The translations under genes and the position numbers were made by a program. A stretch of DNA of 64,000 nt from a virus. Taxonomy: Duplodnaviria; Heunggongvirae; Uroviricota; Caudoviricetes. Position 1 is the first letter of the stretch; every line of letters starts with the position of its first letter. Shown one piece after another: positions 62,180-64,000 of this stretch. The stretch spans positions 1 to 64,000 of IMG/VR virus record IMGVR_UViG_3300037087_000772, one strand, 5' to 3'. Below the pieces are notes generated by a model. That model was given only the letters and a program-made list of their open reading frames with translations, ran no database searches and was not told the DNA's origin.

Positions 62180-64000
62180 TTAAATTAGTTTACTGATACT
62201 GTTCAGCATTTGATTTTTAGTTATTGGTTTGGACAAAAAATCATCAGCACCTAAATCATAAGCCTTTTTTCTAAATTCTGAAACAGCATATGCTGATTGA
62301 ACAATTACGACAATATTTTTATTGTGTGATTTCACATCTTTCAAAACTTTATAACCATCTATATCTCCAAGTCCAAGGTCGAGAAGAACTAAATTAATTT
62401 TATTCTTCTTGATAGTTTCTAAAACTTTATTACCATCACTAACAAAAATTTTGCAATTAGTTGCTTTTAAATAGGATCTCAGTATGTGTATAAAATTTTC
62501 ATCATCCTCAATTATTAAAATATTTATACCTGTTAAATCAATTAATTCGTCCTCTTCGGTATTTTCTGAAACATATATATCATCCTTTATAGCATAGGGA
62601 ACTTCAAAATAAAAAGTACTCCCCTTATCCAATTCAGAATCAAATTTTAAATCACCATAACCCAAAATTTCAATTAATGATTTCGAAATAGGTAAACCCA
62701 ATCCGGCACCTTTGTTCTTTGATCCCGGTTGTCCAAATTGTGCAAAACGATTAAATATAATTTTGAGATTGTCTTTTGAAATTCCTATTCCAGTATCTTT
62801 AACATATATTTTCAATTTGTTTTTATCCAAAATTTCATAACCAAATTTAACGAACCCTTTTTTCGTGAATTTTATAGCATTACTTAATAAATTCATTAAA
62901 ATTTGTTTCAATCTATATTTATCAGTACATATACGAATATTACTATTTAAATCAATATCAATATTTAATTTAACTTTACTTGTACCAATGATTTTCGAAT
63001 ATTGTACTTTCAATTCTTGTAATAATTTATTGAGTTCAACTTCTGTTTTCTGAACTTTCAATGTACCAGAATCTATCTTAGTAATATCTATAATATCATT
63101 TATTAAATTGGTCAATATATCACCATTCTGGATAATAATATCCAAATAATTCATCTTCTCTGCTTTACTCACATTCTCTTTTAAGAGTTCAGAAAATCCT
63201 ATTATACTATTAATAGGAGTTCTCAAATCATGGCTCATATTAGATAAAAAAGCCATTTTTAATTTTTCAGATTCTTCTGCCTTTTCTTTGGATTTTATCA
63301 ATTCTTCTTCGAATATTTTTCTATCGGTGATGTCTAATCCAAAAGATATTGTTCCTGATATAATATTATGCTTTCTAACTTCATTATTTTGCCACAATAT
63401 ATACCTTATTTCACCATGTTTTGTGATAATAGAATTTTCAACAATATCCGTAGAATCATCTTCTGATAAAATAGATTCGAATATTTTATTAACTTTAGGT
63501 AATTCATTCTTTGGTAATATCGGAATATCATTAAACCAATTCTTTCCCATCATTTCTTCTTTTGAATATCCAGTTATTTTTTCTGCTGTTTTATTAAATA
63601 TATTTACACGGCCATTTATATCCAATCCAACAATCATAACATTTGCTGTATTCAATAGATTTTCCGTGAATAAATATGAATCTCTTAAAGTATTTTCTAA
63701 TTCTATGTTTTCGGTAATATCTGATAATATTGAAATAAAACCTATATCGTTCCAAGGAGAACTTGACACTTCAAAGTGTTTGTTCATTTTTGGATAATAA
63801 AATCTAAATTTCTTCGGTTTTTTGTGTAAAACAACATCAGCATATTGATCTAACACTGGAATTTCACCATAAATTTCACTGGCCAACTTTCCTTTAACTT
63901 CTTCTCTCTTGAAACCAAATATATCCTCATATGTCTGATTGGTATCTATTATAGTATAATCTACTGGTTTTCCTTTTTCATCAAATATCATTTCGTGAAT
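62180..64000 (-). CDS. hybrid sensor histidine kinase (PAS–PAS–HisKA–HATPase_c–REC), 5' end beyond the window edge
   Basis: ≥603 aa, open at 64000. PAS-like segments; H-box LKMAFLSNMSHDLRTPINSIIGFSELL; N/G-boxes LMNLLSNAIKFT and GAGLGLPISKSLIEILGYG; C-terminal receiver INILIIEDDENF…LVLLDLGLGDIDG…SKP. Confidence 0.8.
   Translation of the reverse strand: MHEMIFDEKGKPVDYTIIDTNQTYEDIFGFKREEVKGKLASEIYGEIPVLDQYADVVLHKKPKKFRFYYPKMNKHFEVSSSPWNDIGFISILSDITENIELENTLRDSYLFTENLLNTANVMIVGLDINGRVNIFNKTAEKITGYSKEEMMGKNWFNDIPILPKNELPKVNKIFESILSEDDSTDIVENSIITKHGEIRYILWQNNEVRKHNIISGTISFGLDITDRKIFEEELIKSKEKAEESEKLKMAFLSNMSHDLRTPINSIIGFSELLKENVSKAEKMNYLDIIIQNGDILTNLINDIIDITKIDSGTLKVQKTEVELNKLLQELKVQYSKIIGTSKVKLNIDIDLNSNIRICTDKYRLKQILMNLLSNAIKFTKKGFVKFGYEILDKNKLKIYVKDTGIGISKDNLKIIFNRFAQFGQPGSKNKGAGLGLPISKSLIEILGYGDLKFDSELDKGSTFYFEVPYAIKDDIYVSENTEEDELIDLTGINILIIEDDENFIHILRSYLKATNCKIFVSDGNKVLETIKKNKINLVLLDLGLGDIDGYKVLKDVKSHNKNIVVIVQSAYAVSEFRKKAYDLGADDFLSKPITKNQMLNSISKLI

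What the first reader, a model, noticed from the sequence alone, without database searches (positions are those of the whole stretch)
62180..64000. Phage-encoded hybrid sensor histidine kinase (PAS–HisKA–HATPase–REC)
- A complete two-component hybrid kinase lies in an otherwise T4-like phage block, co-oriented with and immediately upstream of two small ORFs and rnh.
- It has a PAS-type sensor region, a canonical H-box (SHDLRTP), ATPase N/G boxes, and a receiver domain with the phospho-acceptor Asp (LLDLGLGD) and the conserved Lys (SKP).
- Base composition and codon usage match the rest of the window, so this is not a host junction.
- A virion or infection-stage sensor kinase could let the phage sense host physiology or hijack host phosphorelays; this is essentially undescribed for tailed phages.
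Basis: partly seen in the sequence, partly recalled or inferred. Interest (0 to 1): 0.85.

Follow-up and report, generated by a model that had tools for sequence, protein, structure and literature searches.

The report
Huge-phage cytoplasmic hybrid histidine kinase
A giant bacteriophage (genome of roughly 0.6–0.74 million bases) carries an intact, long-resident two-component sensor kinase that is conserved across its relatives, which suggests these phages read the state of the infected cell; the protein itself is an ordinary member of a very well-known family.

Summary
The minus-strand ORF 62180–64000 has PAS, HisKA, HATPase_c and receiver domains, all above Pfam cut-offs, and every catalytic residue is intact. 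The window cuts the gene. Identical contigs from four assemblies show a 753-aa protein whose missing 147 residues form a second, N-terminal receiver. The architecture is therefore REC–PAS–PAS–HisKA–HATPase–REC, with no membrane segment and no host flank.

The carrier is a huge phage, on contigs up to 736 kb. It has T4-type head genes, and its head-module half (window 41.7–64 kb) is collinear with the 735-kb uncultured phage LR756501.

The kinase belongs to a phage clade of at least 55 distinct sequences. The transmitter and receiver are conserved, while the sensor modules are shuffled. The nearest cellular relatives are Bacteroidota kinases, at no more than 45% identity. Codon usage matches the rest of the window.

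A phage-only 103-aa ORF follows the kinase in 14 of about 16 loci. LR756501 also encodes a conserved stand-alone CheY-like receiver. No Hpt was found in the kinase or in the roughly 45 window ORFs scanned, and no model-based Hpt search was run on LR756501.

The most likely role is a cytoplasmic phosphorelay kinase acting during infection. Its signal and output are unknown. It is a new member of a known kind, of moderate interest.

The parts
62180..64000 (-). Hybrid histidine kinase gene, residues 148-753 of a 753-aa protein plus the stop codon. The first 147 residues, which form an N-terminal receiver, lie beyond the window end.
   Evidence: ORF and sequence. Pfam domains. Full-length gene on identical contigs L145/L146 at 7690-9951.
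63707..64000 (-). PAS-A, the first of the two PAS sensor domains. Boundaries are approximate, and its first ~15 residues lie outside the window.
   Evidence: PAS_9 second stretch. PAS_8 hit at full-length residues 134-191. Alignment A1.
63338..63664 (-). PAS-B, the second PAS sensor domain (fragment residues 113-221).
   Evidence: PF00989, E 4.7e-17. Only weak PDB relatives: phytochrome B PRD PAS, RpfR PAS and ThkA.
63065..63256 (-). HisKA/DHp domain with H-box SHDLRTP. The phospho-acceptor His404 codon is at 63230-63232.
   Evidence: PF00512, E 7.9e-19. The His is invariant in 18 of 18 family members. Numbering.
62594..62923 (-). HATPase_c catalytic domain with N, G1, F and G2 boxes.
   Evidence: PF02518, E 1.7e-22. 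N370/N374, DxGxG, F416/F419 and GxGLGL are invariant.
62195..62521 (-). C-terminal receiver domain. The phospho-acceptor Asp688 codon is at 62378-62380.
   Evidence: PF00072, E 4e-23. E498, D499, D541, K591 and P592 are invariant and S569 is at least 90% conserved.
61819..62130 (-). Conserved phage-only 103-aa ORF, 49 nt downstream of the kinase. It is a candidate accessory protein of unknown function.
61353..61757 (-). 134-aa ORF between the small ORF and the exonuclease. It is conserved in a subset of relatives and its function is unknown.
   Evidence: Homologues in L004, L006/L020, L007 and L013. No Pfam or PHROG hit.
60332..61375 (-). 5'-3' exonuclease/RNase H-type gene, the downstream syntenic anchor of the block.
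   Evidence: PF02739, E 9.8e-14. phrog_107 exonuclease. 53% identical homologue in LR756501 at 47066-48028.

Best explanation
The gene encodes a soluble, cytoplasmic hybrid histidine kinase of 753 aa: REC - PAS - PAS - DHp(HisKA) - CA(HATPase_c) - REC. It is a long-resident core gene of a lineage of huge phages related to the 735-kb phage LR756501, whose clade is predicted to infect Bacteroidota.

Proposed mechanism:
1. The kinase is made inside the infected cell.
2. The two PAS domains, and phosphorylation of the N-terminal receiver at Asp51, set the balance between kinase and phosphatase activity.
3. The CA domain phosphorylates His404.
4. The phosphoryl group passes to Asp688 of the C-terminal receiver.
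5. It then leaves the protein for a separate partner. The protein has no Hpt or output domain, so this partner is either a host Hpt and response regulator or a phage-encoded single-domain CheY-like receiver of the kind conserved in relatives.
6. The net effect couples an intracellular cue to host physiology or to the phage programme during a long infection.

Shown here: domain identity, intact catalytic residues, absence of a TM segment, phage residence, conservation, synteny, and the presence of a stand-alone receiver in a complete relative genome.

Inferred: kinase activity, direction of phosphoryl flow, identity of the signal, partner and output.
For: Domains and residues:
- All domains are above Pfam cut-offs.
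- H404, the N/G1/F/G2 boxes and the receiver E645/D646/D688/K738 are invariant across 18 family members. S716 is conserved in at least 90%.
- The N-terminal receiver keeps D/E8-D9, D51, T79 and K101 in all 7 members that have it.
- The highest 19-residue hydropathy is 1.1, so no TM helix is expected.

Phage residence:
- The same gene with the same neighbours occurs at 100% or 99.99% DNA identity in JGI, ENA and Logan assemblies, on contigs up to 736,551 bp. The upstream ORFs are phage-type only.
- The window holds a gp23 capsid protein, a gp20 portal, a prohead protease and PolB.
- Window 41.7-64 kb is collinear with LR756501 36-78 kb.
- Codon usage is fully ameliorated, r = 0.95.

Conservation:
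- 55 distinct sequences form one clade. They score 547-636 bits on the transmitter+receiver profile, against 380 bits or less for everything else.
- The sensor region varies (extra PAS, GAF, REC) while the core is fixed.
- The nearest cellular genomes are Bacteroidota.

Partners:
- The HisKA hit spans H-D-x-x-T. From my own knowledge of HisKA enzymes, this is the motif linked to phosphatase as well as kinase activity.
- A broad REC profile finds exactly two REC ORFs in the complete 735-kb relative: the kinase and a 122-aa CheY-like protein.
- That CheY-like protein has 64 close homologues in phage-like contigs.
Against: - There are no biochemical or expression data.
- Pfam finds no Hpt domain in the kinase or in the roughly 45 window ORFs scanned. 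I ran no model-based Hpt search on LR756501, so the step after Asp688 has no identified carrier.
- The CheY-like receiver could not be shown to exist in the window's own genome. No homologue lay on a contig of 597 kb or more.
- The PAS domains give no cofactor clue.
- The host is inferred only from nearest cellular homologues and the published prediction for the clade.
- Enrichment of the Bacteroidota -7 box TAnnTTTG upstream of genes is weak: 14 sense against 6 antisense, and no overall excess.
Confidence: 0.6

Rival explanations
1. Self-contained phage circuit. The hybrid kinase, the phage CheY-like single-domain receiver and the phage-only 103-aa protein form a virus-autonomous signalling module. 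This module times the phage's own programme (replication, late genes, lysis or dormancy) rather than acting on host regulators.
For: - A stand-alone receiver is conserved in relatives.
- The 103-aa ORF is glued to the kinase in 14 of ~16 loci and is absent next to cellular homologues.
- Its best PDB match is IraD, a protein that binds a response-regulator receiver domain.
- The kinase sits in the conserved core block next to the head module.
Against: - The receiver gene is 313 kb away from the kinase in LR756501.
- The receiver gene was not found on the window's own contig.
- No phage DNA-binding response regulator or Hpt was seen.
Confidence: 0.25
2. Anti-signalling device. The protein works mainly as a phosphatase or phosphate sink. 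Its two receivers drain phosphoryl groups from host Hpt proteins or kinases, silencing a host stress, envelope or defence response during infection.
For: - There are two receiver domains with intact phospho-acceptor pockets and no output domain.
- The H-D-x-x-T phosphatase-type motif is present in the H-box (sequence; motif meaning from my own knowledge).
- Hybrid kinases such as RetS act by interfering with other kinases. RetS is among the solved relatives of the transmitter.
Against: All ATP-binding boxes (N, G1, F, G2) are invariant in the family. A pure sink or phosphatase would not need this. No host target is known.
Confidence: 0.12
3. Artefact or passenger. The gene is host DNA (assembly chimera, prophage junction, mis-binned contig) or a recently captured, decaying 'moron' with no role for the phage.
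For: - The nearest cellular relatives are bacterial kinases.
- Many 'phage' database hits to histidine kinases are plainly contaminating bacterial contigs.
Against: - The locus is identical in four independent assemblies, with phage ORFs on both sides.
- Synteny with relatives extends from the kinase to the capsid gene.
- The 55-member clade is separated from cellular sequences by a gap from 547 to 380 bits.
- Catalytic residues are invariant.
- Codon usage is indistinguishable from the rest of the window.
Confidence: 0.03

Closest known systems
Cytoplasmic or unorthodox hybrid histidine kinases that feed an external Hpt: NahK/ErcS' (to HptB), LuxQ (to LuxU), CckA (to ChpT), ShkA (to ShpA)
   Same: - PAS-HisKA-HATPase_c-REC core with no Hpt in the same chain.
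- Partial NCBIfam matches to LuxQ, TorS, ArcB and the NahK/ErcS family.
- The best solved relatives are a PAS-containing histidine kinase (7z8n), a 'hybrid kinase' (6qrj) and HK853.
   Different: - Scores are far below every equivalog cut-off, for example LuxQ at 266 against 1200 bits, so it is an orthologue of none of them.
- It is encoded by a phage and has an extra N-terminal receiver.
- It has no membrane anchor, unlike LuxQ, ArcB, TorS and CckA (from my own knowledge of those proteins).
- Its Hpt partner is unknown.
Bacteroidota PAS-containing hybrid kinases (Bacteroidales, Rikenellaceae and Lutibacter genomes)
   Same: These are the nearest cellular sequences, at 35-40% identity over most of the protein and no more than 45% over the core, with the same domain order.
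   Different: - The phage family forms its own clade with a large score gap.
- It has AT-rich phage codon usage.
- It is followed by a phage-only small ORF that is absent beside the cellular genes.
AgrC histidine kinase of Clostridioides difficile phage phiCDHM1 (PMC3901668)
   Same: It is a histidine kinase carried by a tailed phage and proposed to let the phage take part in host signalling.
   Different: From my own knowledge, AgrC is a membrane-bound quorum-sensing receptor kinase without PAS or receiver domains. It is carried by a small temperate phage as part of a partial agr cassette. The protein here is soluble, hybrid and PAS-sensing, and is a conserved core gene of huge phages. No direct sequence comparison was run.
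Two-component genes automatically annotated in published huge-phage genomes (Al-Shayeb et al. 2020 supplementary GenBank files), and the 'sensor histidine kinase' listed for mirusviruses
   Same: - Histidine kinases, PAS proteins and response regulators recur in huge-phage genomes.
- The orthologue in LR756501 is 53% identical to the window protein.
- Large eukaryotic viruses also list a sensor kinase.
   Different: None of these was analysed or discussed in the main texts. Most of the annotated examples are other, unrelated kinases or short fragments.

Membership tests
HisKA-type (class I) two-component histidine kinase | DHp/HisKA domain with a conserved phospho-acceptor His in an H-box | tested here: met
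   PF00512, 67.9 bits against a cut-off of 26.9. SHDLRTP is present, and the His is invariant in 18 of 18.
HisKA-type (class I) two-component histidine kinase | GHKL ATP-binding domain with N, G1, F and G2 boxes | tested here: met
   PF02518, 80.4 bits against a cut-off of 26.4. N370/N374, D402xG404xG406, F416/F419 and G431xG433LG435L are invariant.
HisKA-type (class I) two-component histidine kinase | ATP-dependent autophosphorylation on His | not testable with these tools
   This needs purified protein and labelled ATP.
Hybrid histidine kinase (phosphorelay type) | Receiver domain fused C-terminal to the transmitter, with an acidic pair, phospho-acceptor Asp, Thr/Ser and Lys | tested here: met
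   PF00072, 82.1 bits against a cut-off of 30.2. E645/D646, D688, S716 and K738 are conserved.
Hybrid histidine kinase (phosphorelay type) | An Hpt domain or protein that accepts the phosphoryl group from the receiver | tested here: inconclusive
   - No Hpt in the 753-aa protein.
- No Hpt in the roughly 45 window ORFs scanned with Pfam.
- The rest of the ~0.6-0.74 Mb genome and the host could not be scanned.
Named sensor kinases LuxQ, TorS, ArcB, BarA, NahK, HrmK (NCBIfam equivalogs) | Whole-protein score above the curated equivalog cut-off | tested here: not met
   Best scores against cut-offs: 266 vs 1200 (LuxQ), 253 vs 676 (TorS), 242 vs 838 (ArcB), 223 vs 725 (HrmK).
PAS sensor domain | PAS fold recognised by profile; identifiable cofactor or ligand motif | tested here: inconclusive
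   The fold criterion is met: PF00989 at 62.5 bits, plus a second PAS. No cofactor can be inferred, because only weak PDB relatives were found.
Tailed phage with T4-type head module | gp23-type capsid protein, gp20-type portal and gp21-type prohead protease | tested here: met
   PF07068 at 1.4e-27 and PF07230 at 1.5e-64, both above their cut-offs. The prohead protease match is weaker: PF03420 at 3.2e-5, 23.9 bits against a cut-off of 27, so below Pfam's gathering score.
Huge phages of the Mahaphage clade (Al-Shayeb et al. 2020) | Placement in the clade by terminase or capsid phylogeny; genome above 200 kb | tested here: inconclusive
   - The window's genes lie on contigs of 597,284 and 736,551 bp.
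- 29 window ORFs match LR756501, and the head-module half of the window (41.7-64 kb) is collinear with it.
- The paper places its largest genomes in this clade.
- No terminase or capsid tree was built here.
IraD / gp25-like fold (for the 103-aa ORF) | Significant structural match to IraD or gp25-family proteins | tested here: inconclusive

The most novel reading that the evidence does not exclude
Huge phages of this lineage carry their own signal-transduction circuit. It consists of a cytoplasmic hybrid kinase whose sensor modules are shuffled between phages (PAS, GAF, REC), a highly conserved phage CheY-like single-domain receiver, and a phage-only small protein encoded immediately downstream of the kinase gene. 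With this circuit the virus senses the metabolic or redox state of the infected Bacteroidota cell. It then adjusts its own developmental programme or the host's phosphorelays, which would be virus-autonomous two-component signalling in a lytic phage.
Probability: 0.25. Interest if true: 0.8.

Novelty: new member of a known kind. Interest (0 to 1): 0.5.

Why it matters
Two-component signalling is regarded as a cellular trait. Here, an intact kinase has been kept for a long time in the core genome block of the largest known phages. Its sensor domains are exchanged between relatives, and a conserved stand-alone receiver lies elsewhere in a complete relative genome. Together these features suggest that the phages monitor conditions inside the infected cell.

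This gives a concrete, testable way into how huge phages manage long infections. It also supports a Bacteroidota host for the lineage.

The protein chemistry itself is standard. Kinase and receiver genes are already present, though undiscussed, in the annotation of published huge-phage genomes.

Tried and rejected
- **N-terminus from homologues (wrong).** I first inferred from the 626-aa homologues that only about 20 residues were missing. The exact contigs showed 147 missing residues with an extra receiver.
- **First IMG/VR scan.** The single-sequence scan of IMG/VR found nothing. The alignment-based scan found 58 loci.
- **BLAST for receivers (superseded).** tblastn with the receiver found only one REC in LR756501. 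I read this as 'no stand-alone regulator'. A broader REC profile on the whole genome overturned that by finding a CheY-like ORF.
- **Small ORF as Hpt.** Rejected, because its His is not conserved and the model is ααβββ rather than a helical bundle.
- **Small ORF as gp25 baseplate protein.** Not supported by the viral fold library.
- **afdb50 unavailable.**
- **Promoters and terminators.** The sigma-70 promoter and terminator scans were no better than shuffles. The Bacteroidota -7 box TAnnTTTG is not enriched overall and only weakly enriched upstream of genes.
- **CheY-like gene in the window's genome.** The metagenome scan for it did not recover the window's own contig.
- **Other checks.** There are no tRNAs in the window. 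Literature searches linking huge, jumbo or mega phages with histidine kinases found no relevant paper.
- **Not attempted.** I did not run an Hpt search of the 735-kb genome with a home-made profile. A few seed sequences would give a negative result of little weight.
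Full report
**1. The observation**

The minus strand from 64000 down to 62183 is one open frame of 606 codons, ending at a stop codon at 62180-62182. No stop lies between the first in-frame ATG and the window edge, so the gene runs off the window.

Pfam finds PAS (113-221), HisKA (249-312), HATPase_c (360-469) and Response_reg (494-602). E-values range from 1e-17 to 1e-23, and all hits are well above the curated cut-offs.

The His of SHDLRTP is at 63230-63232, and the Asp of LLDLGLGD is at 62378-62380.

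NCBIfam gives long partial matches to LuxQ, TorS, ArcB, HrmK, BarA and the NahK/ErcS family, but every one is far below its equivalog cut-off. The protein is therefore a generic HisKA-type hybrid kinase and not an orthologue of a named sensor.

Composition and codon usage match the rest of the window:
- GC is 26.7% and GC3 is 19.3%, against 29.4±3.6 and 21.5±5.0 for the other ORFs.
- The codon-frequency correlation with the pooled ORFs is 0.95. That is higher than for any of the 15 other large ORFs.

**2. Extending past the window**

The 103-aa ORF just downstream of the kinase has an exact copy in public assemblies on contigs up to 736,551 bp. Three such contigs were fetched:
- L146 (ENA ERZ28656406, 222 kb) matches window 51819-64000 at 100% identity over 12,182 bases.
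- L145 (JGI 3300036884, 597 kb) matches at 99.99%.
- L147 (Logan SRR7151610) matches at 100%.

On these contigs the kinase gene has 753 codons. The 147 residues missing from the window form a second Response_reg domain. D8, D9, D51, T79 and K101 are conserved in all seven family members that carry this domain.

The full architecture is REC-PAS-PAS-HisKA-HATPase_c-REC. The highest 19-residue hydropathy is 1.1, so the protein should be soluble and cytoplasmic, with no TM or periplasmic sensor.

The ten kilobases upstream hold only unannotated phage-type ORFs and no host flank. The exact protein is on nine contigs from at least four assemblies, and JGI names it 'PAS domain S-box-containing protein'.

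**3. The carrier**

The window encodes these phage genes:
- a gp23-type capsid protein (41764-43593)
- a prohead protease (43698-46154)
- a gp20-type portal (46613-48427)
- family B DNA polymerase (34085-35560)
- translation initiation factor IF3 (58944-59468)
- an M16 peptidase (57425-58531)
- a 5'-3' exonuclease (60332-61375)

Among 50,697 GenBank phage records, the only genuine phage with a close homologue is the 735,411-bp uncultured phage LR756501/LR756503. It shows 53% identity over the full length. The other hits are weak and sit on what are plainly bacterial contigs filed as phage.

I fetched the whole of LR756501. Window 41.7-64 kb is collinear, in inverted orientation, with its 36-78 kb region. 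The shared gene order is: kinase, small ORF, exonuclease, IF3, M16 peptidase, two large ORFs, portal, protease, capsid. In all, 29 window ORFs have homologues there.

Al-Shayeb et al. 2020 place their largest genomes in the 'Mahaphage' clade and predict Bacteroidetes hosts (PMC7162821). I did not build a marker-gene tree, so clade membership is inferred.

**4. Conservation**

A protein search returned about 50 metagenomic homologues at 44-72% identity. It then dropped sharply to cellular Bacteroidota proteins at 40% identity or less.

On a profile of the transmitter plus receiver, 55 distinct sequences score 547-636 bits, and the next best scores 380. The profile was built from family members, so the absolute scores are biased, but the gap is large. 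In a neighbour-joining tree the 55 sequences form one clade. Its sister is another pair of viral contigs.

Contexts are phage-like wherever they were examined. One relative, L004, repeats the window's order from the kinase to the M16 peptidase and beyond. IMG/VR holds 58 viral loci with relatives. These include two contigs of 640 and 676 kb that each carry two more distant copies.

The catalytic residues are invariant. The sensor part is not:
- Some members swap the first or the second PAS.
- Some add a third PAS or GAF domains.
- Seven carry the N-terminal receiver.

This is the pattern expected of a working sensor kinase whose input is being retuned. It is not the pattern of a decaying passenger gene.

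The nearest real cellular genomes are Bacteroidales, Rikenellaceae, Lutibacter and other Bacteroidota at 35-40% identity. Below that come mixed phyla at about 30%.

**5. Possible partners**

*No receiver or Hpt in the window.* The kinase is the only ORF in the window with a receiver domain. Pfam scans of about 45 window ORFs show no Hpt or response regulator.

*The 103-aa ORF.* It lies 20-50 nt downstream of the kinase in 14 of about 16 distinct clade loci and is never seen beside cellular homologues. It has only 17 homologues among 5.8 billion proteins. None has a Pfam domain or an informative name, although JGI calls some of them 'hypothetical protein'.
- Its AlphaFold model is confident (pLDDT 88.6) and has two helices packed on a three-stranded sheet.
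- IraD is an anti-adaptor solved in complex with the response regulator RssB.
- The viral structure library returns only one uncharacterised marine-phage protein.
- The IraD match is therefore only a lead that the ORF might bind a receiver domain.

*A stand-alone receiver in the relative.* A REC profile trained on 324 sequences finds exactly two REC ORFs in the complete LR756501 genome. One is the kinase. The other is a 122-aa stand-alone CheY-like protein at 350284-350658, with E 1.5e-23. BLAST had missed it.
- This protein has 64 homologues at 53-100% identity. All are single-domain, and they occur in phage-like contexts.
- Its phospho-acceptor pocket is invariant.
- I could not show that the window's own phage has it. 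No homologue was listed on a contig of 597 kb or more, and the metagenome scan did not return that contig.
- LR756501 has no second kinase core.

**6. How it most likely works**

*Shown:* an intact HisKA-type transmitter flanked by two phosphorylatable receivers and preceded by two PAS domains. The protein is soluble, phage-encoded, conserved and ameliorated.

*Inferred from established knowledge of hybrid kinases:*
1. The PAS domains, together with phosphorylation of the N-terminal receiver, set kinase against phosphatase output.
2. His404 is phosphorylated and passes the group to Asp688.
3. The chain has no Hpt and no output domain, so the group must go to a separate protein.
4. That protein is either a host Hpt and regulator or the phage CheY-like receiver.

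The H-box reads H-D-x-x-T. From my own knowledge, this is the HisKA motif associated with phosphatase as well as kinase activity, so a draining role is possible.

The signal is unknown. The PAS region has only weak solved relatives (phytochrome B PRD PAS, RpfR, ThkA) and no cofactor motif.

**7. Comparison with what is known**

The protein works like NahK/ErcS', LuxQ, CckA or ShkA, which are hybrid kinases that need an external Hpt. It is not a member of any of those orthologous groups.

- The published precedent for a phage histidine kinase is AgrC of phage phiCDHM1 (PMC3901668). From my own knowledge, AgrC is a different, membrane-bound kinase class.
- Mirusviruses are reported to carry a 'sensor histidine kinase' (PMC10132985).
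- The jumbo-phage review by Iyer and colleagues mentions only a divergent receiver unrelated to kinase signalling (PMC7824862).
- The main text of Al-Shayeb et al. 2020 never mentions kinases.
- PHROGs holds unannotated families that match this protein, for example phrog_20458 at 3.5e-79.
- Other recent huge- and jumbo-phage surveys are silent on the subject.

**8. Verdict**

The finding is real and correctly identified, but incomplete in the window and over-rated for novelty. It is a new member of a very well-known family in an unusual carrier. Its added interest comes from three things:
- It is a conserved core gene of the largest phages.
- Its sensor modules are shuffled between relatives.
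- It has candidate phage partners.

I score interest at 0.5.

Noticed in passing
window 61819-62130; contigs L145/L146; The window's genes lie on public contigs of 597,284 and 736,551 bp. That matches or exceeds the 735,411-bp record phage LR756501, yet the kinase is only 53% identical, so this is a different huge phage of similar size.
   Followed up: partly
LR756501.1 350284-350658 (locus L158), and loci L166-L186: A stand-alone 122-aa CheY-like receiver with 64 homologues at 53-100% identity in phage-like contigs. It is more conserved than the kinase itself. Its invariant motif is D-Y-K/R-L-P-Y-K-N-G. Its presence in the window's own genome was not established.
   Followed up: partly
window 58944-59468 (+) and 57425-58531 (+): A full-length translation initiation factor IF3 (both domains) and an M16 insulinase-type peptidase. 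Both are conserved in the same order in relatives (L004, LR756501).
   Followed up: partly
window 12728-13228 (+) and 28006-28890 (+): An ART-PolyVal-type ADP-ribosyltransferase (28.2 bits, below Pfam's cut-off of 31.2) and a microbial-type poly(ADP-ribose) glycohydrolase in the same window. This suggests a phage ADP-ribosylation writer/eraser pair.
   Followed up: no
window 3777-4238 (-) and 4276-4653 (-): Two adjacent ORFs of 153 and 125 aa both match a single 298-aa ORF of LR756501 (654775-655668) at 64% and 79% identity. The gene appears split in the window, by a frameshift, a sequencing error or a real disruption.
   Followed up: no
window 34085-35560 (-) and 32210-33919 (-): The family B DNA polymerase ORF (491 aa) covers only the exonuclease domain and the start of the polymerase domain. 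The next ORF on the same strand (569 aa) has no Pfam hit. The polymerase may be split or interrupted.
   Followed up: no
window 49320-49838 (-): A TnsA-like endonuclease domain protein sits inside the head-gene block. Its 53% identical homologue lies at the equivalent position in LR756501 (70613-71137), so it is conserved and not a recent insertion.
   Followed up: partly
window 8359-10686 (+): A 775-aa protein with an SPFH/Band 7 domain (E 6.8e-23), which is an unusual size for this family.
   Followed up: no
L005 5149-6393 and L166 967-1572: In relatives, an IS605 OrfB/TnpB (Cas12f-like) gene lies about 4 kb upstream of the kinase, and short release-factor (PCRF/RF-1) fragments lie near the CheY-like gene.
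   Followed up: no
IMG/VR contigs 3300037067_007156 (640 kb; L017, L027) and 3300035208_009193 (676 kb; L019, L024): Two other huge viral contigs each carry two distant hybrid kinases (32-35% identity to the window protein). One of each pair has an N-terminal receiver. Kinases therefore recur across several huge-phage lineages.
   Followed up: no
window 6154-7053 (-), 10800-11603 (-), 17035-17700 (+), 24001-24768 (+), 28898-29482 (+), 30978-31712 (+): Other annotated genes: a MazG-cytidylyltransferase fusion, a radical SAM protein, uracil-DNA glycosylase, DUF1848 (E 1e-84), a C39 peptidase and an N6/N4 DNA methylase.
   Followed up: no
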